A stretch of DNA of 62,075 bases, the filler included, from Sphacelaria rigidula (lineage: Eukaryota): the NCBI GenBank assembly GCA_964200075.2. It is 11 parts of 11 records of this genome, joined end to end, with 100 filler letters (N's around TTAATTAATTAA, not from the genome) between each part and the next. Parts side by side here need not be neighbours in the genome. Positions count along the whole stretch, not along the records: positions 45,221 to 50,772 come from CAXNAA020026391.1; 10 more parts are not named here. The stretch is one strand, 5' to 3'. The notes under the pieces are model-generated. The model was not told where the DNA came from, ran no database searches, and saw only the letters and a list, made by a program, of their open reading frames with translations. Each line of letters starts with the position of its first letter. Position 1 is the stretch's first letter. Both the position numbers and the translations under genes were made by a program. Below, piece after piece: positions 33,650 to 56,349 of this stretch.

Positions 33650-33916
33650 CTTGACACTTTCTACGATATCCCCCCCCCAAAGGTGCATGATTTTGTGAGG
33701 CGAAATCTTCACGTAAATCGAAAGGGGGAAAGCCGAGCACAACGAAAAGCTGGGAATTCCCACGCTTGGGTTCGTTCTAGCCAATACCGCCAATATGAGG
33801 CGCTTCATGCCGCCTGNNNNNNNNNNNNNNNNNNNNNNNNNNNNNNNNNNNNNNNNNNNNTTAATTAATTAANNNNNNNNNNNNNNNNNNNNNNNNNNNN
33901 NNNNNNNNNNNNNNNN

Positions 33917-33968
33917 CTTGCCTTAGTCATTTGACCATTGACCACGCATCCCTTTCGAGACGGAGCAA
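33917..33968 (-). mobile_element. Family L LINE 3'-end fragment
   Basis: Reverse complement TGCTCCGTCTCGAAAGGGATGCGTGGTCAATGGTCAAATGACTAAGGCAAG matches 22865-22920. Confidence 0.8.
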
Positions 33969-34849: not shown

Positions 34850-35750
34850 GTGTACGCTGCGTGCCATAAGGGCGACAACGACTACAGGGGACACTCTCGG
34901 TGTCTATCGCGGTGTAGAGCTGGGACCGACAGAAACAAGGACACGAAAGTACCGTCTCCGTAAATCTCTATCCTTCAGCTCTTTGGTTGGTCCCTGGTGT
35001 TTTGTGGGTCCGGGTGCACCGCACAACAAGCTCGCTCACAGGTTCCATCTCGATATGAAGAGCACACACGGATCAAGAGGCCGCATGAAGAAATTGGCAC
35101 CACAGAAATTCCTCGATGTATTGCGAAGGGTGACTGCCTATGGTCATACAATTAAGACGGATGTTCGGGGCTTTCCGACTCATGTTTTGTGTACACAAAC
35201 CGCGACATGGATTGGTAACAATAGACCCGCATCCAAGCTGTGGTGATCTGCCATCACCCTCGGAAATGGAGTCAGAGGGATAGCCGATCGCGACCCATGC
35301 ATCAAGACCCAGGCAATTCCACATCGGCAGAGGAACACAGACTTGGCACATGCATTGAACATGTCGACCCGAAGCCACGGGTCGTCATACCACGGGATCG
35401 TGAGCCGTGCACAAGTCCTGTGTGGGACATGTAGTGAACAGTGGTGGCAGCCAACAAGCCGTGGTATTCAGTATAGACTGATCGCGTGTGTGTCTAGTGT
35501 GCCTCTTGCTGTCAGCGGCGTGTTGCGCGTGTATAGGTAGGTCCCAACTTGCCGCTGTGGTGGACCACTACCACCTTCAACATTGTGCTAAACTTGCCCT
35601 ACCTCAACACTGGACATGCAGAATCGAGTGAATTTTCATCCCCGCGAACGTCGCCGAAGAATTTGGCAGCTTCGACGCAGTAGATCAAGATTATATACTT
35701 GGTACATGTAGGAGGTAGGCAACATTCCCCATGTCGGAGGTTGCGTGCCT
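34850..35750 (+). pseudogene. Possible very decayed pogo/DDE_1-type transposase
   Basis: LAAVVDHYHLQH...IFIPANVAEEFGSFD resembles the LLxxDxxxxH...FIPxxxTxxxQPLD core; many stops. Confidence 0.3.
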
Positions 35751-36164
35751 AGCATTTCTATTTCGGTAGTTTCAGGCCGTAACTCAATGGCTGGTTGGTT
35801 AACTATTCCGAGGTAAACCGACACCCTCCAAAGATGTCGAACATACATGCACAAGACACGTGAGTTCCTAGTCCAATGCAATTCCATTAGACTGTATCAA
35901 ACATCAACACACAAAATACAAGAACGTTGGGCATTTCATGTCTCTATTCACTTGCCTGTTGGTCCACGCGCATGTCATGCGATACGCTGAACAGCCGCGA
36001 TGATGACACCACTCTCTGGTGCCAAACGGGGGCGAGATCCGCGCTGCTGCGATCATGAGCGAATCGGCTAAATAGTAGGCTGGCGCATACGCACTTGATC
36101 GCGGATACGCCGTGTGCCTTTGCGAAAAAATGGGCCGGGTGGTGGTGGTGGGAAGGGCAGGGGC

Positions 36165-36690
36165 GGGGAGGGGGGCTACTTACGATCTTGCATGCCGCAG
36201 TGATTAGATCGTTGACCTCACATCCCTGCAAAGCCGGGACGGACCAAGCCGGGTTTTCGCCGGACCAGGCTCGCGATCAATCAACAAGCGCAGGACGCCA
36301 TGATGTGTTCGGCAAGTCGCATGAAGGATGAGCTGCATCCTGCTGATATTGTTTGGCCCGAAGCGTACTGATTATCTTGCATTTAAGCGACAGCGTCCGA
36401 TGAGTTGCTTCATTTTCTGGTATCGCCACCTCCGGGGATAGCCACGGGTTAGATACACTGCCTCATGGGTGTCCCACAATTTTAAATACTGCGCTGTACG
36501 ATCATCCTCTTTTCGCGGAATTGAGGTTCTCCCACTCTGCACGATATGGTTGTCGCAATAATAACCCAAGCGAGAAAAACAATCAGTAAGTAACCTGGTT
36601 GCCTAGCTTACGCAATGAGTGGCGTGTTCTACAGCATCGTTGCCAACCGACGCCGACCCTTTTGGGGGGGATGCCGGGGGGGGGGGGGGA
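36165..36690 (-). mobile_element. Near full-length SINE-like family C copy (about 520 bp)
   Basis: Colinear with 60075-60592; G-runs on the + strand at both ends. Confidence 0.85.
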
Positions 36691-39600
36691 GCAGGGGGGA
36701 AGGAGAAAATCTAAGAAAAAGAACGCGTGTTGAGCAATGATCGTGTATTCGGTACAACAATGATGAATGATTGGCGAAGTAAGTACGAAGGCATGTGTGC
36801 AAGAAGATAAGGAAGCGTATGTGCAATAAAAGCTCTCGAATGAAACACGACGAATACATGCGTAGAAACACCTCAACATATAGAAATGCCACCTGCTAGG
36901 TCACTACACATGTGAAAAGCGCCCAAAGTCTCCTACATGAATAACCAACCTTACTGTTGTCACAACCATCGGGAGCCTTGCCTTGAACGTCATAGACATG
37001 GACCGAACGCCGGCGACAATGGTCGTGACCCGATTGTCCACTCTCGTGAGGTCCATCATCATCTTTTCTAAGTCCTCTTCCATTCCCCCTTCCATATTGT
37101 ACACAGAGTCGTCAATGAGGGCCGCCACATTACTGTACGTGTCTTGCACGCAGTCCACAAGAGCTAGGGGGTTTGCCTGGCGGTGGGATTTGGCCACACG
37201 GAGTTCCGACCCAGTGGTGGGTCGCGCGGGGAGGGGCGGTGGTGGAGAGGGAAAGGATGAATATAGAGCGACTCTAACCTTCATGCTGTTGCGTGTGGGC
37301 ACATTTCAATTGCGTTGGCAGAGAATTGACAGCATTATGAAGGCGGCGCTCGTAAATCCCCGAACCTGGGAAGGCCCTGTTTGTCACCGAGGTGGATCAA
37401 GGAGAACGGAGCCGGCGCCCACATGAGAAAACGGGTTGGCCACCGAAGGTTCGAAAAAATAGTATACATTGCAAATGTCGTGTTGGGAGACATGGTCAGC
37501 TTTTGTATGACGCGAAAGCCGCAGGAAATCGATAAAAAAAAACAACGGAGGCTACACATGTATATGTTAATCACGTTGTCCTCAGTACATGGAATATATA
37601 AGTTGGCGTGAAAGATGCGGAAGATTCAGCGGGCAACGAATGGTTCGAGAAACGTTCATTTTTTTATTTTGATCGCCCTCTCACATTGTCGTCGAAGAAA
37701 ACCGTCACGGCATCGAGATCGCACACCGCATTTTGTGTCGTCGTATCCCATCGGAACCCCTGAAAAAATCACAATGCAAGCGTGAAACGTGAGGAGAGAG
37801 GGAAAGGAAGGGGAGGAGGACGAGCAGGATAGAAACATCTACCGCTCAATGATGTACCATCCTACTCTTTTGTGTAGCATCCTTCATGGTTTTCGAGTTG
37901 AATGCCCAACGAGAAATGGAAAGAGCAAAGACGGTCGGCTGCGAACTCCAAAACGTGATGCATCAACAAACGTCTTCGACGTTGAGCACGGATTTCCGGT
38001 ATTACTGCGAATAGTTCCAGTCTGAAGTGTGGAGATTCAATTCAACGACACGCTGATGGGTTATATCAAGAGGAAAGAGCTACAATCGGGCGTATTCAGA
38101 TACGTGTGCCTGCATACCAGACAGAACCTGTAGCATTAACGGCTGCGAATCCAAAGCAACGGAAAAGTGGGGTGCTCCGACCTAAGGCTGCATGGGTAGA
38201 CACTCGGAGCTTCGGTTGCACCGCGGCGCGCGCCGGACGGTAGCCTGTGGTGGCGTGCCGCTGTAGATTCATCCTTTAGACTTTCTCCGGAGGACTCTGT
38301 CAAGCGGCACATATTCCTAACCACGGTTTTTTCTATGTCGGGCCACTCTGAAAATAACAGCGGATGTGGCCCTCGATATTCGTTCACATGGAGGTGACAA
38401 GCACGCGCCGAAGTTAACTTCGCTGCAACGAATCGTGACGCTAAGAAAGTTTGTGATCCCATGTCTGAATTTCTACTGAGAAGTTCGCTACATCGCAGCC
38501 TTAGGAGAAGACGAAGTCTCGTAGAACATGACGGCGATGGTTTTCCTATTGTTCAACATATTCATGTGTTGCCGCAGAGTGTGAGCTTGTGGGCTTTTGT
38601 TTACACGCGCGTGGTTTGGTCGGGATTTACGCATCAAACCGGTGCACGGATTCATGCACTTGGAGCCGTTAGCAATGCTATCCAGTTGACGATTGCACCG
38701 CATCAATACCTTCACGGGGTCACTACACAAACTGTAGCTTCCAATCATTTGATCGCTCAGGTTACCATCTGGACACGAATGGAGAGCGCTGTAAACGACG
38801 GGTGCATTGGTTCCAGCTTTGTGCCTACAAATGGTGCGTATTGGGGGTCTACTACATCGACGGTGTACGAGTATGAGATAGTCATCATTTCGCAGGTAGT
38901 AGTACTACACAAAAGATGTTGACGCACCAAAAGCAAACACGGGGCTGGATCGTGAAGTTGGTATGTGTCGTCTGCCACCAGCTCGCGGAAAGGATCCTGC
39001 TCAGCCGGGAGGAAAGGGGGGGAGCACACCATGAGCCTACAATAACAAGGGGGGCCACGTGTTGAGAAGAAAACGGAATCTTCAGGACAGTAGTAGTGCT
39101 GTTGAAACAAAAAAATCCAATTTCATCATCGTCGACGACCACCCTGCGGCAGGAATCCGGGCGACGAGTCGGGGAAATAAATCAGACACCGGCGATGAGA
39201 TTGGCAGCGACAAAACATCCTGAATGAATGTACTCATGAAGTATTTGTTTAATTTGTCACGCTCTCGTGCTGTGCGAATGGACTGATGTGCCTGGACTGT
39301 ATCGCTATGTATAACCCTCACAAGAGAAGGTAGGACAAAATCATGTACAGTAGTGGGCGGTCTAACTATTCAGGGGTGTTTTGAGGTTTTCCTCGCTTAC
39401 TGCTCTTCGGAGTGATGCTACGGTAGGGGTACAGAAATAATTTCTGAGGTTAGAATCGTTAGGAGCCCNNNNNNNNNNNNNNNNNNNNNNNNNNNNNNNN
39501 NNNNNNNNNNNNTTAATTAATTAANNNNNNNNNNNNNNNNNNNNNNNNNNNNNNNNNNNNNNNNNNNNAAACGCCTGTTAGTAAATCGAGCTTATATTTT

Positions 39601-41629
39601 GCGCTTTTCCAAATGAGCTTATATTTCGCCCCAGAGGAAGTAGTAATTACACCACCACAGGGTCGACCGGAAAAAAACGGGAAGGAGTGTACATGCTACA
39701 ATGTGGTCATTTTCACGAGGCACTATACCCAGGTGGGCCGTGGAAGGACAAAATGAGCTACCGTCATGAATTCTGCTCATTCCTCTTCCGATGACTCGCG
39801 GTGTGCAGTTAACATGTATGTAGTGAGCGGGGATAAAGAAGCGGTATATAGGCAGTTGATCTCGGTAGCTGAGAATTGCCAGAGACGTACTACACTTTAC
39901 TGTACTATACTGTATGCATGCGCGCCGCAACGCTGATACCCTTCGAGGAGAATTTGCTGCATGCAACAAAGGGGGGAAATGACGGCCCACCCCAACCACA
40001 AAGTGCTGTGTGGCAAGGTGATGGGGACAATAATATCATCCAAAGCCACATGTGGCGGGTGGCCCGCCGGTTGTCACATCCTGTTGGAAGCTCTTTACCG
40101 CGACCCATACTGCTTGCTACATCAGATGTACATTACCTAGTGCGCACCCTGCACCTGAGAATAGATTGGATGAAACGTTCGGTCTTCCTCCTTTTAACGC
40201 TGCGGTTATTATATTACATACGCAGATTTTCAGCAACACGCCACTGTTTGGTGCAGATGCCAGACACGTCATTCCTAACCAGCCTCGTTGGTCGTTCTGG
40301 AGGCCCGGTCACGAAAGGGTTCATCTCACGAGCACCTTGTTACATCCATTTAGCCGCCGGCTCTACATGCCACGAACATGCCCAGACTGCGCACACAACA
40401 ATTGCCTACACACAATTTATCCTTGTCTCGCTCTGGCTGTGTGCCATGATTGTGTCTTGCCGTCGTATTTTCAGCTACTTCCCTTCCTCCTGACGTGCAG
40501 GCTCATACCGTAGGGGTCGACCCATGTCTCTCTCGGTACATGCGTGCCTCCTCTGACATTTTGGTCCGCCGGTTAGATAAGCTCCCCCGCGCACCGCGTC
40601 AACGCTCGTCCAATTCACTCTTTTACTTTTTCACGCCCTTACCGCTAGCCATCGACTCCATCTGCTCTCTTTTTCGCTCGTTTTTTGCTTTATTTTTGTT
40701 CCTTCGCTTTTCTTCGCTTTCCTGAGCTTTTCCTGCGTTATTCTTTGCGCCTTTTTTGCTTTTGTGCGTCATTTTTTTTTGTTTTCTGTATCTTTTTTGT
40801 TTTTTGCCCCTGTTTTTGTACGTCGAAGTTAAGCTGGGCTAGCAATACTCGTACGGTGGCGGACCGCGTGGGGAGCCCTGATTTGACTCGACTTTTGAAC
40901 AGAGCTCCCCACATGGTCCCCGCCCCCCACCGTAGTACTAGCCTGGCTTGACTTTTGACGTGAAACATGAAACATGAACGTGTGACGTGTAGAGCCCTGA
41001 AAGGAGGAGGTCTGTCTGTCTGTCTACCTGCAGTTTTTTTGCCCGGGGAAATCGCAAGTCTGCGCTGTCCTGTCGGAAATCAGCGCCACTTATACGCAAT
41101 CCTCTTCAAAATCTACTGTATTTTCTGAAAATCCGCGATATACGTGGGTTTTCATGCTGTTTTTTCGCGACCATTTTTCCGCGCAAAAATCCGGAATTCT
41201 GCTTTTTCTGGGACCGGAGATGGCATCAATGGCTACTTACAGCGTGAACGTCAACCAGGTGTTGCTCAACAGACCGTATCTATCGGGACTTGAAGCGGCG
41301 ACCTTCTGCTCCGAGGGCTGACCTTAGCCCTTTGATGGCGAGCATGGGTTATCTTCATCTGTTGGATCAGCATCAATTTCACTTGAAAAAAGTATGCATG
41401 GCCAAGATGGACTACCCTTGCGGCTCAGGGGTTTATGAGGCACAAAAGTGATTTCCAAAAAATTAAATAATCGAGCAAGGAAGCTTGGCTGCCCACAACG
41501 ACCAGTTTGCTTCGTAACGACCAAACACAAAAAATACTTTTTTTGGAAGAGCGGCCTTTCTTTCGGCGCTAAACGCAGTCGGAAACGGCCCCGGAAATCC
41601 CAACGGGCGTAACAGAATAGCATGACTGA

Positions 41630-42614
41630 GGCCGCTTCTTATAGACTGAAAAAAGTCTCTGAGAAAAGTCATTTTGGACAACTTTTCTCAGAGAATTTCT
41701 CCAGAGAAATCAGTTTTCAGAACCTCACCGTATAGTCTATGAAAAAATCCTGGGGATTTGTACACCCGAGGCCATCATCTAGCCTGCGTGCAGACGCTGG
41801 TAGTGGTCATCGTTTGCATTTTGTGCTTGTGCCACCTGCGGTAAAGCGGTAAACCAACTCGTAAATAATCCTGTCAAGGTACAGGATGGATGGGATGGCA
41901 ACACACACACATACACACACACAGTAGCTACTGGTATAGTCGGGATCGAAATGATGGGCGTATCAACCCTTACTTCAGCCCATCGCCGCTTGGTACAGTA
42001 GTCGTGTCGCAAGCGGCGGAATGTGTGCAGCAGACGGTTTGTGCCATACCGCACACAAAACTTCACGTGACAGTTAGTAGTGCGGTAGTAACCGTCTCAG
42101 TACGCAAAATACTACAGAGTTCGCAATCGGTGGCGGGCACGACGAGCATGGAACGATACGAGCGTAGTCAACGCAGCCAGCAGGGGCGACATCGTGCTAT
42201 TTTACGGTTGTAACGCTGCCGGCAGAAAAACAGTGCACTGTACTGTACTGTAATGTCTGTCCCTGGTTCTACGGTCACGAAAAGGATGCACGGAGTGCTG
42301 CAGCAGCTATGCTGTTGGCGCTGTACTGTACGTACAACATGAACCACTACTTTTGCACTGACTGTACCATTGCGGGTGCGGTGTGCGAGGAGTGTGTGAT
42401 GGAACGACAATTCGCGGGCTGAGAAAAGTCTCTGCGAATCGCCATCGATTCGCAGAGAGATTTCGCAAAATCCCGCTGTCTGTAAATTATGGCCAATTTC
42501 CAGAGGCTTTTTTCACGAAAAATGGCACTATAAGGTCGCGTTCTGAAAAAAGTCTCTGGCGATTGATCAAAATGACTTTTCTCAGAGACTTTTTTCAGTC
42601 TATAAGAAGCGGCC
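41630..42614. mobile_element. PIF/Harbinger-like MITE, 985 bp
   Basis: Perfect 47-bp TIR GGCCGCTTCTTATAGACTGAAAAAAGTCTCTGAGAAAAGTCATTTTG; 3-bp TSD TGA on both sides. Confidence 0.9.
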
Positions 42615-42617
42615 TGA

Positions 42618-43020
42618 GGGCGTGTCTTGGGTCGTGTCTAGGGTCCGGTCTTGGCAAATTAGTTTTCGATTGAAAAAGTGCGGTGGAAAAAACAAAAATC
42701 CCGATCTGATAAGTCGCAATTTCAATCATCGTTGATTTTGAAGATGGTTGAAATCGCGACCTATCAGATCGGGATTTTTGTTTTCCACCGCACTTTTTCG
42801 ATCGAATACTCATGGGCTATGAAAGGCCCTGAGCACGACAGTTTTCGATCGAAATTGTGCGGTGGAAAAAAAAAATGCCGATCTGATAGGTTATAATGTC
42901 GATCATCGTTGATGATTTTCAAGATGGTTGAAATCACGACCTGTCAGATCGGGATTTTTGTTTTCCACCGCACTTTTTCATTCGAAAACTCATGCGCCAA
43001 GACACGGTCTGGGACACGTT
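42618..43020. repeat. Double-hairpin element (two tandem palindromic units of about 145 bp); fragments at about 43590-43750 and 44240-44335
   Basis: GTGCGGTGGAAAAAA...CCGATCTGATA...TCAGATCGGGATTTTTGTTTT.CCACCGCAC at about 42662-42810 and 42841-42990. Confidence 0.8.
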
Positions 43021-44511
43021 ACACCTACACTACCCAGCCCGAACAAGGACGCAGAGACACCCACTCCACAATGTCATCACACCCATGATAGCGCTGCTAG
43101 CTCTTGCTTACTATACAGGATGCCATATGTTCCACGGTGAATCCGCTCGGCATTAGAAGGGGGCCGGGCGGGTGTGTGTTGCACGGTGCCTGTCTGCTAT
43201 AAATCATCGTGTCTCCTCTAAGTCTGAACCGATTTTTCCGGAGCTAGAAACGATGTACTCAGCCGATCAATACCTACGGCTCGAGCTTTTTATTGTCTAT
43301 CCTGAGGCACGGAGCTCACAAGTTGATGTGAGCTTGTGCCTCAGGTCCAGGCTGTGTGGCAACAGTGTGACATGTGACAGGCGTATGCCACTCCAAGGGT
43401 AATTGCGCCGCGGGTTCACGTTGCCCTTCATGGCGACCAGCCCAGTTTCATGGTTTATTCGAACAAGATAGCCTCGACGTCATCACCTATCATATACACC
43501 CAGACTCGAATGGAGGGTTTCCGATAGGAGGAGGTTCCCTGGAACAGCCAATATCGTGGTTGAAGGCGTGTCTCCGCACTTTCTTTCCCGATTGCAAACG
43601 TGCGGTCGATTTTTTTTTGCCGATCTGATAGGTCCACCGCATTTGTGTTCCTAGAAGGCTTCGGCTCAAAATTATAATTAGCGGCGCGCGGAGAAAAAAT
43701 ATTCGAGACGCAAAAAAAATCGTTATCGATCGGAAACATGCGGTCGAAAGGCACGAGGCGGCACTAGACTCCTATCTCACAGACCACCAAGCTAGAGAAC
43801 ACCCGTTCACAGGACCATGCAGACTCCAACTCATTCTCAGCCACCACTGCAACCCTGGAGCAAAGAGCACGAGTTGATCCCAGGGATGGATGCACTGCAG
43901 TTGTTGGGTATGCTGTTTATTTTTTGTCGGCGAAAACTCGCGCATCTTCTTTCCTAATAGGGATCGGCGACGGGACTGCGTGATACGGTGGGCAACCGAG
44001 CTGCAGGCACGCTCATGGGCAGTGCAGGCAATACAAAGCTGCAAGTTGCTCAAGTCCTTCTCACGTCGTATTGTAAGCAGAGGGAACTGATAGTCCTGGG
44101 CTGTATGCACTGAACGTTGTCCGCTTGTATTTTATACCGTTTCACGAATTTCATCATCTCTTTTCGATCGGAAGCTTGAAAATCCATCTGGACCCAACTA
44201 CATCAAGACGAGAAGGTTTCGCTCAGATCGATTCCACCGCCCCATTTTTTTGATCAAATTTTTTCGACGATAGTTGAAATTACGACCCATCAGATGAGGA
44301 TTTTTTCTCCACCGCACATTTTCGATCGAAACCTAATGTGCTAAGATAAGACAGGGCCTTAGACACGCCCTGATGATCAGAACATCGTGTAAGCCTAGCC
44401 TCAATACAGAGAGTTTCCGATAGGCGAATACTTCCTCGAACAACCAGTATCATGGTTAATGATGCGAACAAGGTGACCCGCGGATAGCCTGAAGAAATAA
44501 CTCCACAACAA

Positions 44512-44969
44512 GGCCGCTCCTTGTAATAGACAGAAATATAAATCTGGAAAAGTGCCTTTTTGGAGATTTTACGTCGTTTTACGCTCCAACAGAGAGCCAG
44601 GCGGAAATTGACACCTTGGAATGACTTGCCCTACTTTTTGAAGCGGTTCCAGGACATTTTCCCGTTTTCCTGTGGCCGCAATTTTTTATTTCGGCCAAAC
44701 AAGAATTTTTGTCCAAAAACGGTAGAAAACAGTCAAATCTAGAAAAAAATCGCCACTTTTCTCTGGACTTGACTGTTTTTTACTGCTCCTGGACGAAAAT
44801 TCTTCCTTGGCCAAAATGGGAACATGTCCTGGAACCACATAAGCTTGTAGAGCAAGTCATTCCAAAATGTCAAACTCTACTTACCTCTCTTTTGGGGCGT
44901 GAAACGACGTAAAAGCTCCAAAAAGGCACTTTCCCGGATTTTTATTTTTGTCTGTTATCAGGAGCGGCC
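44512..44969. mobile_element. Palindromic Harbinger-like MITE
   Basis: GGCCGCTCCT...AGGAGCGGCC termini, about 200-bp imperfect arms, flanks CAA/TAA. Confidence 0.8.
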
Positions 44970-45521
44970 TAACCGACGAAAAAAAAAGCGCCGCCGCTTT
45001 TCTTTTACTTGGAGGGTGTACTCATGATCACGCATACCATAGTCGTACGAGCTGGGCCAGCCTAGAGGCGGATTTGAAGTTTGCAGGCCCATGCTCTTTT
45101 ATACATTTAGAGTTGGGCCCNNNNNNNNNNNNNNNNNNNNNNNNNNNNNNNNNNNNNNNNNNNNTTAATTAATTAANNNNNNNNNNNNNNNNNNNNNNNN
45201 NNNNNNNNNNNNNNNNNNNNCATTTGGATGACAGCCTACAATGAGTTGCTTTATCTTCTGGTATCGCCACTCCCAGAGACAGCTGATGGGGAGGGGGGAG
45301 GGGGGGGGCAACAAGAAGCGGTCAATGAGGGGAGTCATGTGTGCTGTAGCACATTGGTAACAGACAGGCAGGCAGGCGAACGACAGAGGTGGACAGATGA
45401 AGAGTAACATGCCATTATTTCCCGAACATGTACATCGCGCCGTCCACGCCACAGGCCTCGCTTGCTGAGTCCCACGGGATAAACTAGAACATGGGTCTAA
45501 AACAATCGAATGACAACGATC

Positions 45522-45780
45522 GCCGCGCCCCGGTGGTCTGTCTAACGGTCTGGCTGTCACCATTAGGGGAGCGAGAACGTGGGTTCGATTCCCGACGCGT
45601 TGAGTTTGTTTCTTCGAAGTATCTGACTCCCACCGTCGAAAGCGTGGGTGCGTGAGTGCTGACCTAATTCGCGAGACCAAAATGCAAGGCGTGTACCGGG
45701 GAGAGATGCATTGATCCCTTGAAACCACGAACTCGTCCCGAGGGGGGAGGGGGGGGGAACCAAGTGCGACGAAAAACAAA
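45522..45780 (+). mobile_element. tRNA-derived SINE (family B; Asp-GTC-like loop CTGTCAC) lying in the TBP-like gene's third intron
   Basis: GGTGGTCTGTCTAACGG...GGGTTCGATTCCC head; 3' end AAGTGCGACGAAAAAC; homologous to 54340-54733. Confidence 0.75.
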
Positions 45781-45832
45781 TGACCTTGAATGCATTTTTG
45801 GCCCAGCACGAACATCAGCCTTCGGCACCCAC

Positions 45833-46019
45833 CTTGCCCGACACGAAGATGAGGAGGCATATCTTTGGTTGTGCGAGGCGGTAAATTAACCCCGGGAATA
45901 ACTCGGGTTCGTAGTTGCAGTGCTCGCGATGCGCCGAGACATGTAAGCCCTCCAGGCGTATGGGAAAGCCTAGATCCGTAGTGGCAACCATGTTATGCAC
46001 CGTTCGGTGAGTTGCCAAA
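45833..46019 (-). CDS. TBP: TBP-like protein, third identified exon (second core repeat)
   Basis: Acceptor TTTTTACTTGAACAG, phase 2 matching the previous exon. Encodes (N)[62 protein letters not shown]. Donor AAG|GTGGGT. The final VVLTG exon is not in this contig. Confidence 0.93.
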
Positions 46020-46917
46020 CTGTTCAAGTAAAAAGCGAGGTGGGTTCAGGCGATTGGGAGTGGGAACACGGGGCATGGGATACAGATATGAGTATCGGCC
46101 TGCACGGTCGCGCCTCGGCATCATTAGGAGGTTCAGTACCGCATTTATCGGGGGTAGTTGCGCGATTGTGATCTTGAGCAAAGCGGCAAGGGAGCTAGCT
46201 GCATACATCATCACACGGTACCATCGTACACCTGTGCGGTCATGGAGCGCATCAAAGCTGTACGTGAAATTGAATTTTCTCAAGACTGAAGCATTGGCGG
46301 CGAGTGTGAAAAAAGTGAACATGAACTTCCTTCACGATGGACACTATTCACCCAACACCTGATGCTGAAGAGTAAGATTGCCAATCAACCTGTAAGTGGT
46401 TCTATGCAGGCGTATTTAGTCAATGACCGGCTTACCCTTGTTGATGATCCTGCTTTTTTCAATGCGTCTGGGCGCGTGTTCGTTGACATTTTACACAACG
46501 CACGTTCCGGTCTACTGTACAGCCCGGGTGATGGAAGTTTGTTTTCAAGCCAGGTTCTCTCCGCAACTACCCTGTACTGGCGTCACGTGTATACCAACAA
46601 CCGACGACAAAAAAATGCATCGAATTAAGCGATCCCTCGAGATACAGTATTTTACTCTAGCGTAATCGGTGTGAACGTTTGGAGCAATCCATCAGGGTCT
46701 CGTATATTGAAATCAAGACGCTTCACCTTGGCGCTCAAAGTTGGAATGTGTTGGGGTAGGGCAGGGGGTGGGGTATCATCCATGGAATGTCGTGCTACCC
46801 TCTGAGATGCAGCTACTGTATGATCCAGTGTGAGGTGTGCGGATAGATCGAGGAGCTTTAACTGCAGGCAGCAAGCCTTTCTCCCCTACAGGATGGGCAT
46901 TAGGTACGAGTTTATCG

Positions 46918-47305
46918 AGTGTATTGTGCATTGTCGCCCCATCCATTCTAGACGCCAGTCTACACCTTTCGTAATATATGGACGCATCCGTCGGGGTCAC
47001 ACAGGAAGGCCTGCACAGGAGTTTTTTCTTCGTTCTCTATGTTTTAGCACTCCACCTTCCTTCTGCGGTGCTTGCTTTATTTCTTATCGCGAGAGGGGTT
47101 CAGCGGTCTGTTTCCCTCGTCGATCGTGAAGTCGAATTATTTGTACCCACGACATAGTCGCTCTCCATTTAGTCGCTCTCTATTTTGGGCATGGTGTGAG
47201 AAAAAATCCCAGTTGGTGTGATCGTGTGACTGCACCGAGATGCGAACCCACGACCCAACCGTCAGAAGACGCGAGGTTACCAACTGAGCCACTGGGGCGA
47301 CCGGC
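46918..47305 (-). mobile_element. tRNA-Arg(TCT)-derived SINE (family A) in a TBP-like intron
   Basis: Reverse complement CAGTGGCTCAGTTGGTAACCTCGCGTCTTCTGACGGTTGGGTCGTGGGTTCGCATC; body colinear with 26156-26537. Confidence 0.85.
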
Positions 47306-48675
47306 AATTGTGAGATCAATTTACTTGGATTCAGTGCTGTGTAAAAACACTTAGATGAAGTGTGGTCAAGAACTCATTGGTCCTAGTGTGGTGAACAGCT
47401 ATCTGATTTCAATGGAATCAATAACCGCTTGGTCTCAGGATGTTCATAAACTACTTGATTTCAGTATAGTCAAATTACCCACTTGATTTCCAGAATGCCC
47501 CCCTCTCCTCCCTCGGCCTCTCACAATGAACCTTTACGCCAAAGGAGGGAGATGACAAAGGGTTCGCAGTTGGTATAGTCCCTTTGGTAAATCCGTATTC
47601 CAGACAGATTGAGATGGAAGTGTTCCAGCCCGCCAGTTCGTCGTGGGGAGCTGCAGGGTTGGAGGCTGGAGCGGTTCAGGACTGCGAGTGTACACCTGGA
47701 GGTTCAGCCTCTGTGGAGTAGTACATTGGAATAGAGACAACTAAAACAGTCGGTATACAAGAGAGTCAGTGTGTAGTGTAGCGGAGGAATTTTCAACGAT
47801 TCGTTGTTTCCACTGGGCAATATTCGGCGGTGTGCGGCTTTTGGTCTCATGACTTCGAGAATACAGAGAGGTAGTGTCCCTGGGTATATGACGGGTACAT
47901 TGTTCCTTCGTCTGTTCATCGCTGGGCATTCATGCGAATCAGAAAACATGTAAGTGCGAGCACACGGGGGGAACGCGAAGCGCGCGCTGCTTGGCCGCTC
48001 CAAACCAACGGTGAAATGAACGCGATTATTGTTGGTTATACTATTGGTGCCTTGACTGCAATGTTGACATTGGCCTCTCGGTTTCTTGCGACGGTCCACC
48101 ATTCAGGTAGTGAGTATCTCAGGCAACCAAAGCAGTGGGCGCACGGCACTGCGGGAAGAGTGCCAAAGCTCGCAAATCAATTCGAGATACCGATGAGTGT
48201 ATTTTTCGTACTTTTTCAACTCTCGAACAAATCCTGGGGACTATCGTTGGAATTTATTCCTCCGGAGGGGGGGGGGGGGGGGGGGGAGTTTTTCTTTTAT
48301 TTTTTTTTTGTCACATGTTTGATTGCGGACAAAGTACTTTTCTCTCAGATTTATTTNNNNNNNNNNGCCGCGCGGCTGGTTGTGGGGTGCTGGGGGTGGG
48401 GGGGGGGGGGGGGGGTGGGGGGGCGGGTGGTGGCCAGTCTTCTACAATATTTTGTACGTACACATGTTCGCTTCCCGCAAAAGTAATTTCACCACGACTT
48501 CATTGACCGCCTCCTCTACCGGCTGATTCGATTCCTGGTTTAGTTCATTTCGTTCGTATCCACTCTTGATTCGAAAATCGAGTCTGCCGGAACTCCTAGG
48601 TCAGGGGGCGTCGACGATCCCACAGTGACCCAAGACATGGCTGCAAGACCAAGTTATAGAATTTTGGATGCTTAC

Positions 48676-48839
48676 TTGAATCTGCTCGTGTCGTTACCGA
48701 GCTTGCCCAGAATAGCAGCAAATTTCGCGCAAGCGTAGTCAACAGCCCTGTTGCTGTGGGCCCCGGTAACCACCACCTTGCCCGTCTTGAACACCAGCGC
48801 AGTTGCCTTGGGCTCTCTCTTGTCTATCAGCCGAATAAC
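48676..48839 (-). CDS. TBP: TBP-like protein, second identified exon
   Basis: Acceptor CTGCAG|GTT. Encodes VIRLIDKREPKATALVFKTGKVVVTGAHSNRAVDYACAKFAAILGKLGNDTSRF. Donor AA|GTAAGC (phase 2). Confidence 0.93.
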
Positions 48840-49534
48840 CTGCAGTGGGTGGAATTTTTCGGGTCGACGGGATGTGTCGTTGTATAGCGTATCGGTCCAC
48901 GTAATACGGTTATGCATTGAATGGAATATTGATTCACGTACGGTGATGCACCGTACAGCGTATCGGTCCACTTGCGGTAATGCGGTACTATTGTAGACCA
49001 TAGACCAGGTTCATCCGCGCATGCAGAAAATGGATTATGGGCCATACAATATGCAACGGTCGGTCCGCTCCAGTGCAGGGTTCTTCACAAAAATGCAGTC
49101 TGCATTGTGGATGTACTCGTAAGCTCTGCTGTAAGTGAAATACTTTCTTGTCTTGTAGTATAATAGCACGACAGTCAGCATCGCACGGCAGCAGCGGAAT
49201 ACGATACATAAAGGCCAACAAAAAACACAGTGGTGTCTTCCGACTACAGACAGTACCCGGAAAACAATGTTGCCGTTTTTCTTCAAGTATACAGATCTCG
49301 GGCACGTTATACGCTGCCGTGGGGCATGCAATCTGAGCAATCCGATTTAAATATGAACATTGAGATCGAGTGAAGTTGAGCTCGAGGTTTTGATCCTTGG
49401 CGGCACAAGGAGACAATTCCCAATTCCAAAACATGACATGACACGAAGAGAGTCTGCGGTATCATTTACCGTATACTGTACGAAGTACACAGAGGAGGAC
49501 AGGTTTGATGAAACAAACAAAGTAAGATACTCAC

Positions 49535-49795
49535 ACAAGCAGAGAATCGCTTTGGGTTATACTCTGCGTTACGAGCACGCATCACTACGCGCTGCAGGTC
49601 CAGCTCACAGCCGACGTTGGCTGTAGCGGTAACGTTGACAATCCGCAGCTCGCAGCCCCCGTGTTCCATCAGCGGCCCAATCGTCTGTGCTTCCATCGCC
49701 TTTTCCGCCTCCGACAGAGTTCGACTTGGCCGGCCTGCTGTCACCGCGCCTGTCGCTGCACCTGAGCCGCCGGCACTCAGGCGAGACAACGTCAT
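49535..49795 (-). CDS. TBP: TBP-like protein, first identified exon. Start uncertain: ATG 49795, ATG about 49696, or splicing from an upstream exon via intron 49887-49762
   Basis: Encodes LRIVNVTATANVGCELDLQRVVMRARNAEYNPKRFSAC. Donor TGT|GTGAGT (phase 0) matches the next exon. Confidence 0.9.
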
Positions 49796-51387
49796 GATAC
49801 AAAGGTCGGCCCCACTGACCGGTGTACACTGTGAGTCGTGCAGCCTTCAGCTTTCGCTTTTGTCGACTGAAAGTTTTGGGAACTCACCGGCTGGCCGGCG
49901 CAGGCAGTGGCGATTGGGCAAGCTGCCAAGGGCAGCAGGCCAGCGACTGAGGCGTTGAGGTGCTGGCTTGTACTGCCTCGCCGTCGCTGCAGGGCTTGTT
50001 GATCTCAACCGCAGCAATGGAAAGAGCGGCTACGACTGCGAGGAGGAAGGTGCGGGCTGACTGGTTGAAGCGCTAAGAGAACGATGGTGCCACACTGCTT
50101 CAATGACACCAGGATGGATTAGATGCCTCGGTTGACTGCGAGTGTCCACGGCCTCTTTTACATAAGTTAGGGTACAGGTCATCTCTCACGGAGGTTGTTG
50201 ATCGCTAACGGTTCAATTCCCGCTGCGACCATTTTTCACGTTTTTCTTTCTTTCGTTTCCATTTCCCCATTCTCTCGTCTTGTGGGGTCGTGAAACCATG
50301 GTTGTTGATTGATGTAACAAATCATCCCATCGGAGGGCAAGGAGTGACCGGTTTCACCACGATATAATGCAACACATCATCCCATCGAAGGACAAGAAGT
50401 GACCGGTTAACCGTTTCACCACGATATCACCGATCGTTCGGGCGAAGACTGCAAGGAAGTAAAGCTCCATAGCTCATCACGAGCAACTAATAAACACGGG
50501 ATCTTACAAATCCTCATGTTTCATCACGCCTTATTCGAAAACACGCAGCAGAGATGCCAGCGAGTCCATCGTTGTTGCACTTGGAGGTGTGGTGAATCAG
50601 TTTTTTTCGATCTAGTACTCCCGCATGCTGCGTGTTGTACCGAATAGTATACCGTACCAGTTCAAAAACGGATATACACTACTATATAAACGCCACCGAC
50701 ATGTTCTGGTTATAACAACAAAAAATTGTGCGAATTGAGGTTTAACTTCGAGATGAGGCTCAAGCCCAAAACNNNNNNNNNNNNNNNNNNNNNNNNNNNN
50801 NNNNNNNNNNNNNNNNTTAATTAATTAANNNNNNNNNNNNNNNNNNNNNNNNNNNNNNNNNNNNNNNNNNNNCACGCAGTACAGAGGAGTAGGTGAACAC
50901 ATCCCCACGGGGCCTGACGGTGACTGTCTGCGAATACAGATAGTAGACGGGGGCATAACTGAGGCAAATGTGCCGTCGGTTTCGCCTTTGTTATTTTAAC
51001 TTAGGCGCAAGCTTGCTATGATGCGGTGCAAAGCATCTGCTGTGGGTGCGGCGTGAAGATTGCTTCACGGAGAGTCAGCCATGCACTCTGGCCGGGGTTA
51101 CAAAACACCGACGGGTCGAACAACGTCATACCCTTAAAATAGAGAAAGAACCTTCGAACCTTCTTTTCTTCCACGTTCCATTCGCACGGATCTGAAAAAC
51201 ACGCTTTGGGCGAGTCGTCTGCTCAAAGGCTGTAGAAATACAACCATTTCTTGCCCGAATAAAACTCAAATGTAAATCGTCAATTTTCCATCAACGGTTA
51301 CAAAAGGGTTAATATTGATCGTAGGAATGATTTTTTGGAACTTGTTTCAGGTCCAGGGGCGTTTTCATTTTTCTTCCAATGGCCATA

Positions 51388-52149: not shown

Positions 52150-54339
52150 ACCCCCGCCCCCCCCGCACAGCCCCCCCCCACCGCCCCGGCGCCCCGCNNN
52201 NNNNNNNCTCTGTCGAAAAACACCCCCCCCCCCCGCCCCCTGGAAACCGCTGGAAACCGCTGGAAACTGCTGGATGTCCCTGGACTATCAGCCTGTGAAA
52301 CTGTTTCGAGCGGACGCTCGTTGTCGAAAGGTTAACTCCGAATTCAAAACAGAATTTTCGCAGATGTCCCCTAACCAAGTCCGGATTCATCACCGCCTAG
52401 GCAGCTGCCAGCAAATACTCTTTTTTCTAGATGATAAATGTCTTCCCTGCGGCGTGATGAGAGAAATAGTACCATGCGTAGGATGACCCAGGAACCCCCT
52501 TTTTCCAAGATAATAACTTTCTACGCTGCGACGCGATGAAGAAAAAAAAAACAGGACCATGCGTGGCATGACCTACTCCCGCCTCTACTACTGCATTACA
52601 ACATGGAGTTAAGGACGAGAGTAGCGAAATAACCCAGGGTTGAAATCTCAGTCTCGTCAGGGGGGGGTTGAAAAAGTGTCGTGCTTCATGAAATAAAGCA
52701 TGTGTGGCACCTTCTACTCTGAGGTCTACTGTAAGCGGTGTGGACGATAGGTGCAGTCCATCTTACCCAGGGTAGAGGGCGTGTAGGTTATCTTCTCGCT
52801 CGGTGTAGGGGGTACGGAGCGTGTGGGAACGCGACGTGGAGTTGGACTTCGTAAGCCTTGCGGAGTAAATCTTGGGACAAAGATATGGACTGAAACAGTG
52901 GACGTCGGACGTGACGCCCTGAGTGAGTAACATGACCATAGGCCGGGCGGGAGATTGGAAGATGACAGTCCCGGGATGACGGTCCGGGTGGACAGACCCG
53001 GGTCATCGGTAAGGGGGTCGAATCATACGGAGGTAGTTATCGCACTGCAATAAATTTTGTGATAGTTGACAGGGGCGATAGTTGGGTGGTTTCACAGACG
53101 AGGCTACTGAGCAACATGAAAACCGAAAGGAGTTGCCGATATACTACTCTGCAGTTGTGTATGAACACTATAGCTGCAACGTCCGTCTCCTTCCCACCTA
53201 GGAAGCACAGGTCCAGCAGATGATATCGTAGGTACGGAGCAGATTCATACTGGGCAAAAGGCAGTCTTCCGCCGAAAGACAGCAACATATTTCTCAAGCA
53301 CGCCTAAAACTCATTCACAATATTTACGAAACGATGACGAAGCAGTAGAAAGCAGCGACATGAGATACACACGGTTGGTCGCAGGTCCGCTGGGGATTTT
53401 AATGGTGAAAGATTGTGGAGGACGAATCATGGCGGGAGGGCCCTCCGCACCAGCAAATAATGAGCTTCATACCAAAGCAACACACACACACACCCCTGGC
53501 CGATTTCGCTGGTTCATAGCATTTCCAGCAATAGCTCCTGAGGCAACCTGCCTCGATGCCGCTTAATCGGGTACCAACTTTCTCTGGATCCTGGAAGCTT
53601 GAGATGGAAGGTAGTCTGTGACGAGGCTTCGTTACAATTGTTTTTTGGTAAAACCGCCTCCAGAGGGAAAATAGTAGGAGTAGGTGGACCTATCAAAACG
53701 TTGTTTGCGGTTACGCCGTTTTATGAGCGTTGAGCCTCGATGCAGGGCTGTCTCTGGATATGTTGTGATGATCTCTGTAGAGGTATGAAAGTATGATTTC
53801 TCTCTGAACACACTCATACTTAACGTAGGTCCACCTATTGTACTCGTATCTTCCCTACTATACTTCTACCGTGATACTCAGGCTATGTACACATCGCACG
53901 ATCGTGTGAGAGTATATACCATCAGACACTTTCGAAAACGCGTTTTTTTTTGTTGTCAGCGTAGATTTTGTCGGTCTGAGGCCGAAACACAAAATACGTG
54001 CCTTCAAGGTACTTCCGGACCTCACTGCCTGCGGTCATGACGGTTATTTCAAAAAGCAATCCGTCGTTTTTGTTCAACCATCACGTATCGATCTACACCA
54101 CACGAAGCGTGTTATGCCTACACCCAAGGGCTAAAACACGACACACACACGCGCACGTGAACAGAATTCAAAAGTCCAAATCCACAGCGCCTCGTCAGCC
54201 ACGACGCATGCAGTGAGAGCTGTGTGCACCTACTGTGCTGTACACCGTGTGAACATCCACGAAAAAATTGGACAGCCACACCATAGTTGAAGATTGTATT
54301 CATAATATTTTTATCACCGCAGTGTGGTCAGCCACTGCT

Positions 54340-54733: not shown

Positions 54734-56349
54734 GTAGATGTATTGATTCGATCGTTCGGTGCATTGGTTGTCGCACCTCAAGTGACCCCCCAGGGATCCA
54801 CCCGTGGTGACATGGTATGACGTACGTGAGACTAAACTAAACTGAAAAAAACTCGCTGAAGATTTGATTTGATTTGATTTGATTTGATCGTCGCACTTTA
54901 ACTGACCGCCCATGGATCCAGCCGTTTTCAAGCCGAACTATCGGAGAAATCCACAAGCCTGGTCACGAGCCACTTTCATGCACCAGCGTCCAGCCTGTCG
55001 AACCCTCTAGGGGACCAAACGCCGCCATCAACCCACCGATCGTCCCCCCCCCCCCCCCGGGCTCGGGTTGATGGCACAAGGTGCAGGCCCGGGGCGGGTT
55101 TCACACCCATTGCACAAAGGGGGGGATGGGGACACCTCCCGCTTAAANNNNNNNNNNCCCTTTCATGCCCCCGCGCCCCGCCCGTCGAACCCCCTGGGGG
55201 ACCAAACCCCCCCATCAACCCCCCCATCGCCCCCCCCCCCCCCCCTGGGCTCGGGTTGATGGCACAAGGTGCAGGCTCGGGGCGTGTTTCACATCGATGG
55301 CACAAAGGGGTGTAGTGGCACACCTCTCGTTTAAACCACCGTTCATTTTCATGTCATTTCTGTACATCCTGGACGATAGATTACATCGTCGAAACGTGTA
55401 CTGGGTACAGTCAGTATCGGCTATTATTGCGTCTGTTGCAGTAGACGATGGATTCCATACCGCACGCAGTACACTAGTACACTCTTTGACCATGTAATGT
55501 ATAGTCATTATCCAGGGTGTGTGATTCTGGCCGTTGTCAAGGCTGCTTGATGTTTCAACATTCTGGAAGAAAAAACACCAAGGTTCGGAGATGGTGCGTG
55601 CCTGTAGTGCAATTGAATCATCCCCCCCAAATTGTCAACAGAGGCTGCATGGGTATTCTCGACGCACATCGCACCCGGGCAGCAGTTGTGGTTCGGAGTG
55701 TCCAAGCCTTGGAAGGACCCTTGGCATCAAAACACCCCCGGAGAGAAATCCTGTGCAACTGTGATAATCGCAACCTGTTTTATTTTATTTTATTTTATAA
55801 TTATTTGTCAAATGTTCTGTTTGTATCGTCATTATCTAAGGGGTGTGCAGTATCGGTGCGCGGAACGAGGGTTCGGTTCGTCTGTCATGTATGAAGGCAC
55901 TACTGTAGGGGCTTGCCTCCGGAGTGGACTTTTTATTACTTTTTTTTCCCCGAGGTATTCAATCGAGCCTTACAAGAAAAGCACATGAGCCGACATCACT
56001 CCAGTACAGTACACGATGTGTCTATATACATGAAGTGCAGTGCAATCAGTCCTTTAACGCGCAGTTGCTCCCCCCATTTGTTGTGCAATGACGCAAAAAG
56101 GAGAGATAACGGCGATGATGAAGTTGTAAAACCGCCCCGCTAAGAACTTGTGCGTATCGATGCCCTACCGGTGATGACGTCCACTCGTGTCTTCTTGGCG
56201 AGATTTGGATATATAACCACGTTCAATGTTCCTGCACGTAACAGATATATTCCACTGTACCCGAGAAACTCGCCTGCGCTCCGCCGTTCAACAAACGGTT
56301 TTCACCGCTCAAAGTGTGTCAAGAAGCGCCCCCCCCCCCACCTCCCTCC

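What the first reader, a model, noticed from the sequence alone, without database searches (positions are those of the whole stretch)
45833..49795. Divergent TBP paralogue: DNA-binding face intact, cofactor-binding helix 2 remodelled
Seen: three minus-strand exons splice in frame (introns of 695 and 2656 nt, phases 0 and 2) into a TBP core with no stops. Established knowledge, using yeast numbering aligned by eye: the four intercalating Phe (PKRF, LVF, PELF, LIF = F99/F116/F190/F207), both Asn (N69/N159) and the TFIIB stirrup YEPELF are kept. Helix 2 reads SNRAVDYACAKFAAILGK versus SEDDSKLASRKYARIIQK (K133D, R137A, R141A), Q68/Q158 become V/H, and there are 3-4 aa insertions ([21 protein letters not shown]). 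That basic convex surface contacts TFIIA, TAF1-TAND2, Brf1 and Mot1. Inference: a lineage-specific TBP-related factor that may still read TATA-like DNA but uses different partners, i.e. a possible alternative core-transcription module.
Basis: partly seen in the sequence, partly recalled or inferred. Interest (0 to 1): 0.72.

Follow-up and report, generated by a model that had tools for sequence, protein, structure and literature searches.

The report
Ordinary brown-algal TBP gene, lineage-typical divergence

Summary
Three minus-strand exons (49795-49535, 48839-48676, 46019-45833) each match Pfam TBP and join into 204 aa without a stop. Contigs from three RNA-like runs join the exons at exactly the predicted junctions, while a DNA run is collinear with the genome.

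The interpretation as a divergent paralogue or alternative module is not supported.
- Ascophyllum, Ectocarpus, Cladosiphon and Nemacystus proteins share the 3-aa insertion, the changed helix 2 and the long linker. Choristocarpus and Discosporangium are intermediate.
- The gene tree follows the species tree: brown algae 100/99, sister to Chrysoparadoxa, whose helix 2 is canonical.
- The Ectocarpus siliculosus member is named a TATA-box binding protein by UniRef.
- A published survey lists a single TBP for Ectocarpus (PMC4030286, Suppl. Table 1).
- No brown-algal name appears among the 120 listed hits to a canonical TBP.

Lineage-wide remodelling remains: an N-stirrup insertion unique among 323 other TBPs, and K133D. 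K127H and Q158H are private to this copy.

The last exon is transcribed, because the RNA contigs run about 2.2 kb past exon 3. It was not found in the visible window. No whole genome was available, so the TBP copy number here is untested.

The parts
49796..50144 (-). 5' untranslated region (minimum extent)
   Evidence: RNA-like contigs reach 50021 (X6), 50144 (X7) and 50022 (X8) upstream of the ATG (table 8). An in-frame stop lies upstream of the ATG.
49535..49795 (-). Exon 1 coding part: ATG, a 49-aa low-complexity N-terminal region, and the first half of TBP repeat 1 (up to ...KRFSAC)
   Evidence: Pfam PF00352 E 1.1e-9, profile 2-40. Covered by RNA contigs with 0 differing letters.
48840..49534 (-). 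Intron 1 (695 nt, phase 0, GT..AG)
   Evidence: The joint 48837->49533 'skips 695, cut +2' is present in one contig each of X6, X7 and X8 and in 0 contigs of DNA run X1 (table 5).
48676..48839 (-). Exon 2: second half of repeat 1, with the 3-aa longer N-terminal stirrup, helix 2 and the start of the inter-repeat linker
   Evidence: Pfam PF00352 E 2.1e-11, profile 45-84. Residues 7-48 align to yeast TBP chain 1rm1_A residues 106-147.
46020..48675 (-). Intron 2 (2656 nt, phase 2, GT..AG). It holds highly repeated elements, C/G homopolymer tracts and a 10-N assembly gap (48357-48366).
   Evidence: The joint 46019->48676 'skips 2656' is present in one contig each of X6, X7 and X8 and in 0 contigs of X1. 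X1 depth is 1e5 at 47081-47452, against about 30 in single-copy parts.
45833..46019 (-). Exon 3: end of the linker and the first 59 of 85 profile positions of TBP repeat 2 (up to ...FVSGK)
   Evidence: Pfam PF00352 E 1.3e-21, profile 3-59. The RNA contigs match down to 45829 and then leave the window sequence (table 8).
45221..45832 (-). Start of intron 3 (donor GT at 45832-45831, or 4 nt further on). The acceptor and last exon(s) are not in 45221-45828 and were not found elsewhere in the visible window.
   Evidence: Scans for the C-terminal part were negative.

Best explanation
The locus is the orthologue, in a brown alga (Phaeophyceae), of the general TATA-binding protein. It is a transcribed, spliced, single locus encoding a two-repeat saddle protein that binds and bends promoter DNA. 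It most likely serves as the cell's ordinary TBP for RNA polymerases I, II and III.

The features that look aberrant next to yeast are traits of the crown brown-algal TBP lineage, not of a special extra copy. These are a 3-aa longer N-terminal stirrup, helix 2 with K133D and fewer basic residues, a longer inter-repeat linker, and Q68V.

Shown: TBP family membership, splicing, transcription, orthology, and lineage-wide sharing of the features.

Inferred: that it is the only TBP of this genome, that it still binds TATA-like DNA, and that the changed surface is matched by changes in its partners.
For: Family, splicing and transcription
- All three exons hit Pfam TBP and join into 204 aa with no stop.
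- Both junctions are present in contigs of 3 of 3 RNA-like runs laid and in 0 contigs of the DNA run. Exon depth is 37-137 and intron depth 0-5 in those runs, against about 28-32 throughout in X1. The contigs carry 0 differing letters.

Orthology
- Orthologues with the same 3-aa stirrup insertion and VDYAC helix 2 were found in Ascophyllum (P0086), Ectocarpus spp. (P0121, P0122), Cladosiphon (P0124) and Nemacystus (P0310). The E. siliculosus member is P0323 = CBJ26253.1, which UniRef names 'TATA-box binding protein'. Choristocarpus and Discosporangium lack the insertion and have an intermediate helix 2.
- In a tree of 42 rows the brown algae form one clade (100/99), sister to Chrysoparadoxa (93/73). 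Within it the crown clade has 100/99, window + Ascophyllum 98/92, and Ectocarpales 100/96. This is the species-tree order.
- The window protein is 68.4% identical to Ascophyllum (134/196) and 65.7% to Ectocarpus (130/198).

DNA-binding and TFIIB-contact residues
- F99, F116, F190, F207, N69, N159, T124, V161, E186, E188 and L189 are all kept.

Fold
- An AlphaFold model of the Ascophyllum orthologue (mean pLDDT 83.1) matches human TBP with target TM 0.95 and rmsd 1.2-1.3 Å.

Copy number in relatives
- PMC4030286 Supplemental Table 1 lists one Ectocarpus TBP (0029_0017) and '-' for TBP (B) and (C). It also lists TFIIB, TAF1 and Brf1-like for Ectocarpus (I read the table).
- 0 of the 120 listed hits to the canonical Chrysoparadoxa TBP carry a brown-algal name.
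Against: - No whole genome is held for this window, so a second, canonical TBP in this organism cannot be excluded.
- P0126 is an unnamed canonical-type TBP that branches just outside Chrysoparadoxa + brown algae. Its organism is unknown.
- I could not confirm that Ectocarpus 0029_0017 is the same protein as CBJ26253.1.
- The last part of repeat 2 (profile positions 60-85, with T215) was not found in the visible window.
- This copy has two private changes at otherwise near-invariant positions. K127H: K or R in 322 of 322 other TBPs. Q158H: Q in 318 of 323, and Q in the other six brown algae.
Confidence: 0.85

Rival explanations
1. It is a lineage-specific extra TBP paralogue (a TBP-related factor) that coexists with a canonical TBP in the same genome and drives an alternative initiation module.
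For: - Helix 2 and the N-terminal stirrup differ from nearly all of 323 other TBPs.
- The brown-algal stem (0.86) and crown stem (0.63) are long branches.
- Oomycetes, also stramenopiles, have three TBP genes (PMC4030286, main-text table and Suppl. Table 1).
- The genome itself could not be searched.
Against: - Each brown-algal proteome that surfaced gave one TBP type, and it is this type.
- The published survey lists one TBP in Ectocarpus and none of the (B)/(C) types.
- No brown-algal-named canonical TBP is among the 120 listed hits to the Chrysoparadoxa TBP.
- The gene tree equals the species tree, with stepwise intermediates in early-branching brown algae.
Confidence: 0.08
2. It is a truncated or decaying copy (pseudogene) that lacks the end of repeat 2.
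For: No exon for the last 26 profile positions was found anywhere in the visible window on either strand. The region downstream is rich in retroelement remnants.
Against: - There are no stops or frameshifts in 204 codons.
- All checked DNA-contact residues are kept.
- The spliced contigs with 0 differing letters in three RNA-like runs continue 2188-2215 nt beyond exon 3 and do not read into intron 3.
- The four letters after the donor that the contigs still match make the next codon Val, as in the orthologues' ...SGKVV (inference).
Confidence: 0.03
3. It is the sole TBP, and its changed surface is functionally meaningful: brown-algal TFIIA, NC2, Mot1, Brf1 or TAF1 have co-evolved with it. This refines the best explanation and does not replace it.
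For: - The stirrup insertion and D133 are fixed in 5 of 5 crown brown-algal sequences, and the insertion is absent in 321 of 323 other TBPs.
- Mot1 and NC2-beta helix H5 bind the convex side of TBP (PMC4565979, passages read).
- That paper's reference list cites Kim et al. 2008 on helix 2 contacts with TFIIA and NC2 (title only seen).
Against: - No partner sequence was examined here.
- Other ochrophytes (diatoms, Triparma) also lack K133 and R141.
- Ala at 141 occurs in 33 of 323 other TBPs, and position 133 is non-basic in 70 of 323. Part of helix 2 is therefore simply tolerant.
Confidence: 0.35

Closest known systems
Brown-algal TBP orthologues, e.g. Ectocarpus siliculosus CBJ26253.1 / UniRef D7FV81 'TATA-box binding protein' and Ascophyllum nodosum P0086
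   Same: Same clade (100/99 support). Same 3-aa stirrup insertion, VDYAC helix 2, long linker, V68 and conserved N-terminal extension. Identity is 65-74%.
   Different: This copy has H127 and H158, where the other brown algae have K/R and Q. Its linker is shorter (18 residues against 22-24), and it has A137/A141 like Ascophyllum's S137/A141 where Ectocarpales have K137/R141. Its last exon was not located.
Canonical eukaryotic TBP (yeast, human and plant; solved structures such as 1YTB, 1CDW, 1QNA)
   Same: Two PF00352 repeats. All four intercalating Phe, N69/N159, T124, V161 and the E186/E188/L189 stirrup are kept. The orthologue model superposes at target TM 0.95.
   Different: The N-stirrup loop is 3 aa longer (7-residue loop 104-110 in the Ascophyllum model, against 4 residues in the C-terminal stirrup). 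Also K133D, R137A, R141A, K127H, E129N, Q68V, V71T and Q158H, and a linker 3-4 aa longer. Identity to a yeast TBP is 54.5%.
TBP-related factors: metazoan TBPL1/TRF2 and TBPL2/TRF3, and oomycete TBP (B) and (C)
   Same: These are TBP-fold proteins with altered surfaces. Extra TBP genes do exist in stramenopiles (oomycetes).
   Different: Those coexist with a canonical TBP. Here no companion canonical TBP was found in brown-algal data, and the gene is the vertical descendant of the ochrophyte TBP. That TRF2 lacks the intercalating Phe residues is recalled and was not tested here.

Membership tests
TBP (Pfam PF00352, TATA-binding protein) | Two tandem TBP repeats | tested here: inconclusive
   Repeat 1 is complete (exons 1 and 2, profile 2-40 and 45-84). 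Repeat 2 is present to profile position 59 of 85 (exon 3). The rest lies on an exon that is transcribed but was not located.
TBP (Pfam PF00352, TATA-binding protein) | DNA-kinking Phe pairs (F99/F116, F190/F207) and minor-groove Asn (N69/N159) | tested here: met
   All six are kept in the window protein and in all brown-algal rows that cover them. Each is invariant in the 319-323 other TBPs that cover it. Numbering was checked.
TBP (Pfam PF00352, TATA-binding protein) | C-terminal stirrup residues that contact TFIIB (E186, E188, L189) | tested here: met
   E, E and L are kept. Their role in TFIIB contact is recalled knowledge.
TBP (Pfam PF00352, TATA-binding protein) | Saddle fold | tested here: met
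   Tested on the closest complete orthologue (Ascophyllum P0086), not on the window protein itself. Mean pLDDT is 83.1. Foldseek against human TBP 4rod_B / 1cdw_A gives target TM 0.95, rmsd 1.2-1.3 Å, E 2e-22.
General (canonical) TBP of the organism | Vertical orthology to the TBP of related lineages | tested here: met
   Brown-algal clade 100/99, sister to Chrysoparadoxa 93/73, with internal order as in the species tree.
General (canonical) TBP of the organism | Only TBP gene of the genome | not testable with these tools
   No genome is held. Indirect support: one TBP is listed for Ectocarpus in PMC4030286 Suppl. Table 1, and 0 brown-algal names occur among 120 listed hits to a canonical TBP.
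General (canonical) TBP of the organism | Basic helix-2 surface (K133, R137, K138, R141, K145) | tested here: not met
   The window has D133, A137, K138, A141 and K145. Among 323 others, 133 is basic in 253, 137 in 318, 138 in 315, 141 in 272 and 145 in 322. The departure is shared with other crown brown algae, so it is a lineage trait.
TBP-related factor / extra paralogue (TRF, TBPL, oomycete TBP B/C) | Coexists with a separate canonical TBP and forms its own clade apart from TBP orthologues | tested here: not met
   No companion was found in brown-algal data. The gene sits where the species tree predicts. This was not tested in this organism's own genome.

The most novel reading that the evidence does not exclude
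Crown brown algae run all nuclear transcription with a single TBP whose cofactor-facing side was rebuilt after they split from Discosporangium and Choristocarpus. The changes are a 3-aa longer N-terminal stirrup (recalled as the TFIIA docking hairpin), a charge reversal at position 133 with loss of one or two more basic helix-2 residues, a longer inter-repeat linker, and a conserved, confidently modelled N-terminal helix-strand extension. This would imply co-evolved TFIIA, NC2, Mot1, Brf1 or TAF1 interfaces, that is, a lineage-wide rewiring of the core initiation machinery in an independently multicellular group.
Probability: 0.3. Interest if true: 0.5.

Novelty: new member of a known kind. 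Interest (0 to 1): 0.3.

Why it matters
For annotation, this settles the locus as the brown alga's TBP gene, with RNA-confirmed exon borders and an unlocated last exon. It removes the suggestion of an alternative core-transcription module.

The residual interest is comparative. TBP is among the most conserved eukaryotic proteins, yet crown brown algae share a stirrup insertion absent from 321 of 323 other TBPs sampled, and an acidic residue at position 133. Early-branching brown algae show intermediates. Three literature searches found no paper that describes this. If the partners co-evolved, brown algae would be a natural test of how much of the TBP cofactor surface can be exchanged.

Tried and rejected
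Last exon. All of the following failed to find it.
- A regex for the VVLTGAK-type strand on the minus strand of 30000-45840 gave two non-TBP matches.
- tblastn of four full-length TBPs against the window matched only the three known exons above noise (the output was cut).
- I built an HMM from 117 C-terminal pieces and ran it against all stop-to-stop frames of 8 aa or more on both strands. The best hits were 26173-26072 (E 0.056, 10.8 bits) and 40828-40772 (E 0.26). On reading them they lie in a repeat-like stretch and a Lys-rich stretch and do not fit TBP, so I rejected them.
- tblastn with seven brown-algal C-terminal tails gave only low-complexity matches.
- The exon may lie under one of the periodic N masks (for example 45121-45220), more than 45.8 kb away, or on another scaffold.

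Other attempts.
- Whole-genome search: no genome is held.
- RNA runs: no listed holder is on record as RNA. X6-X9 are only guessed to be RNA. I treat X6, X7 and X8 (the three laid) as RNA because their contigs skip both introns.
The laid stretch therefore stops at 45221, and the loose end at 45829 was not among the rows shown.
- tRNA scan of 44000-51000 and Rfam scan of 45221-48300: no hits for the tRNA-looking repeats.
- Literature: searches found no paper on brown-algal TBP divergence. One search served only to document the cofactor surfaces.
- dN/dS, complex modelling with TFIIA, TFIIB or Brf1, and stage- or sex-specific expression were not attempted. No orthologue DNA, partner sequences or further read-laying runs were available.
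Full report
**What is there.**
On the minus strand an ATG at 49795 opens exon 1 (to 49535). An in-frame stop lies 17 codons upstream of it. Exon 2 is 48839-48676 and exon 3 is 46019-45833. Each exon on its own hits Pfam TBP (PF00352): E 1.1e-9 (profile 2-40), 2.1e-11 (profile 45-84) and 1.3e-21 (profile 3-59 of 85). Joined by coordinates they give 612 nt = 204 aa without a stop.

**Transcription and splicing.**
The run search listed DNA-like holders and four small runs guessed to be RNA.
- I laid X6, X7, X8 and the DNA-like X1 on 45221-50772.
- In each of X6, X7 and X8 one long contig (3030, 3153 and 2598 nt) covers exon 3, exon 2 and exon 1 with 0 differing letters.
- These contigs join 46019 to 48676 (skipping 2656 nt) and 48837 to 49533 (skipping 695 nt, 'cut +2'). 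Both joints are CT..AC on the + strand, that is GT..AG for the gene.
- X1 has 0 contigs with these joints. Its contigs 45711-47069 and 48435-50540 run straight across the exon/intron borders.
- Exon bins have depth 37-137 in X6-X8 and intron bins 0-5 (leaving aside the repeat-rich bins at 46895-47452 and 48197-48382), while X1 is flat at about 28-32. These runs therefore behave as RNA, and both predicted junctions are confirmed.
- The 5' UTR reaches at least 50144.

**The missing last exon.**
- The same contigs carry a further 2188 nt (X6, X7) or 2215 nt (X8) on the 3' side of exon 3. They match the window only down to 45829 and nothing in 45221-45828. The transcript therefore does not read into intron 3 and is spliced onward.
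- The four extra matched letters make the next codon Val, as in the orthologues' ...SGKVV (inference).
- I could not find the exon. The attempts were a regex scan, tblastn with four full-length TBPs, an HMM of 117 C-terminal pieces against every frame of 8 aa or more on both strands (best E 0.056) and tblastn with seven brown-algal tails. The two best HMM hits do not stand up to reading.
- The window carries paired 44-N masks every 5652-5653 nt, including 45121-45220. The 45 kb downstream holds retroelement remnants.
- The exon is therefore under a mask, more than 45.8 kb away, or on another scaffold. This stays open.

**Relatives.**
- Exon 3 searched against longer proteins gave 5388 significant TBPs. 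The most identical were brown-algal: Ascophyllum 79%, Choristocarpus 77% and Discosporangium 77%.
- Searching with the Ascophyllum protein brought Ectocarpus sp. 12 and E. fasciculatus, plus two EukProt entries. Cluster look-up names those as Cladosiphon okamuranus and Nemacystus decipiens.
- The Ectocarpus cluster includes E. siliculosus CBJ26253.1, which UniRef (D7FV81) names 'TATA-box binding protein'.
- In the alignment all five crown brown-algal sequences share three traits: the three extra residues in RLI-x-x-x-EPK, the helix-2 motif VDYAC with Asp at yeast position 133, and a lengthened linker before repeat 2.
- Choristocarpus and Discosporangium lack the insertion and have an intermediate helix 2. 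Chrysoparadoxa has the canonical helix 2.
- All six brown-algal sequences that cover position 68 have Val.

**Phylogeny.**
An IQ-TREE tree of 42 rows, the window protein included, was built on 237 kept columns.
- The seven brown-algal rows form one clade (100/99), sister to Chrysoparadoxa (93/73), with the unnamed P0126 outside (98/93).
- Inside, Choristocarpus + Discosporangium branch first. The crown (100/99) then splits into window + Ascophyllum (98/92) and Ectocarpales (100/96).
- This is the species-tree order, as expected for one vertically inherited gene.
- The brown-algal stem (0.86) and crown stem (0.63) are long. So are the stems of diatoms + Triparma (0.75) and of the Aureococcus/Chrysophaeum group (0.90), so fast TBP evolution is common in ochrophytes.

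**How unusual are the residues?**
The sample is biased, because it consists of the top hits of three queries. Numbering was anchored on F116 and checked against yeast chain 1rm1_A.

| Position(s) | Window | Other brown algae | 323 other TBPs |
|---|---|---|---|
| F99, F116, F190, F207, N69, N159, E186, E188 | kept | kept | invariant where covered |
| T124, V161, L189 | kept | kept | near-invariant (320/322, 312/323, 317/320) |
| Segment 103-111 | 12 residues | 12 in the crown, 9 in the two early-branching | 9 residues in 321 |
| 133 | D | D in all five crown | K/R in 253 |
| 137 | A | S in Ascophyllum, K in Ectocarpales | R/K in 318 |
| 138 | K | T in Ectocarpales | K/R in 315 |
| 141 | A | A in Ascophyllum, R in Ectocarpales | A in 33 |
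| 127 | H | K/R | K/R in 322 of 322 |
| 158 | H | Q in the other six | Q in 318 |

- The column for position 68 was misaligned for brown algae in that large alignment, so I read it. Among the others, Q occurs in 315 of 319.
Most of it describes the lineage; H127 and H158 are private to this copy.

**Fold.**
An AlphaFold model of the closest complete orthologue (Ascophyllum) used a 30-row alignment and has mean pLDDT 83.1.
- It shows the extra residues as a longer loop (104-110) between strands 98-103 and 111-116, which is the N-terminal stirrup hairpin. The equivalent C-terminal loop has four residues.
- Helix 2 is intact (129-148).
- A helix (35-46) and a strand (50-54) precede the core and are modelled with pLDDT up to 91.
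- Foldseek puts the model on human, plant and yeast TBP at target TM 0.91-0.95 and rmsd 1.1-1.4 Å.

**Is it the only TBP?**
- I could not search this genome.
- Matari and Blair 2014 (PMC4030286; I read Supplemental Table 1) list one TBP for Ectocarpus siliculosus, type (A), 0029_0017, and '-' for types (B) and (C). The four diatoms are the same. Oomycetes have three. The table also lists Ectocarpus TFIIB, TAF1 and a Brf1-like protein.
- A search with the canonical Chrysoparadoxa TBP listed 120 best hits, none with a brown-algal name. The five best unnamed ones fall with the Aureococcus/Chrysophaeum group or, for P0126, outside Chrysoparadoxa + brown algae.
- I could not confirm that 0029_0017 equals CBJ26253.1, and unnamed rows cannot be assigned to organisms.
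- I put the sole-TBP reading for this organism at roughly three in four.

**Mechanism.**
- Shown: a transcribed TBP orthologue with the complete set of checked DNA-contact residues and the TFIIB-side stirrup.
- Inferred from established knowledge of TBP: it binds the minor groove of TATA-like DNA through the concave sheet, kinks it with the two Phe pairs, and recruits TFIIB or Brf1 through the C-terminal stirrup.
- The changed parts lie on cofactor surfaces.
  - Mot1 and NC2-beta helix H5 bind the convex side (PMC4565979, passages read).
  - That paper cites Kim et al. 2008 on helix 2 contacts with TFIIA and NC2 (title only).
  - That TFIIA docks on the N-terminal stirrup is recalled and was not checked here.
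- Whether brown-algal partners changed in step was not tested.

**Comparison and verdict.**
This is a member of the TBP family and the orthologue of an already annotated Ectocarpus protein. It is not a TRF-like paralogue. Three literature searches found no description of the brown-algal stirrup insertion or K133D, so this comparative point may be unreported. Interest is modest.

Noticed in passing
window 5554-56524, every 5652-5653 nt (e.g. 45121-45164 and 45177-45220): Ten regularly spaced pairs of 44-N runs, each pair separated by 12 visible letters. The strict period points to masking, not assembly gaps. These blocked read-laying below 45221 and could hide a short exon.
   Followed up: partly
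window 47081-47452 (intron 2), 45221-45406, 45593-45778 and 50615-50772: Very highly repeated elements. DNA-run depth is 1e5 to 5e5, against about 30 for the TBP exons. Two of them look tRNA-like by eye (about 47320-47230 and 45640-45540), but ARAGORN and Rfam call nothing. They are possibly tRNA-derived SINEs.
   Followed up: partly
window 48260-48440: Long C and G homopolymer tracts flank a 10-N assembly gap (48357-48366) inside intron 2. Contigs of all laid runs break here. Further 10-N gaps lie at 52198-52207 and 55148-55157.
   Followed up: no
window 635-5008, + strand: Remnants of a Ty3/gypsy chromovirus-type LTR retrotransposon in several frames: zinc knuckle, reverse transcriptase, RNase H, integrase and chromodomain.
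   Followed up: partly
window 21246-21887, + strand: A weak endonuclease/exonuclease/phosphatase match (E 0.0029, below the Pfam cutoff), possibly a LINE remnant. Eleven further long frames across the window had no Pfam hit.
   Followed up: no
Ascophyllum orthologue P0086 residues 35-54; window exon 1, about 49705-49646: Crown brown-algal TBPs share a conserved segment just before the core (...AM..Q.IGP...G.C.L...). It is modelled as a helix plus a strand with pLDDT up to 91. Where it packs on the core was not examined.
   Followed up: no
proteins P0081, P0097, P0087, P0113 (Triparma, diatoms): Diatom and bolidophyte TBPs also lack the basic residues at positions 133 and 141 (Ser and Tyr). Part of helix 2 is therefore variable across ochrophytes, not only in brown algae.
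   Followed up: partly
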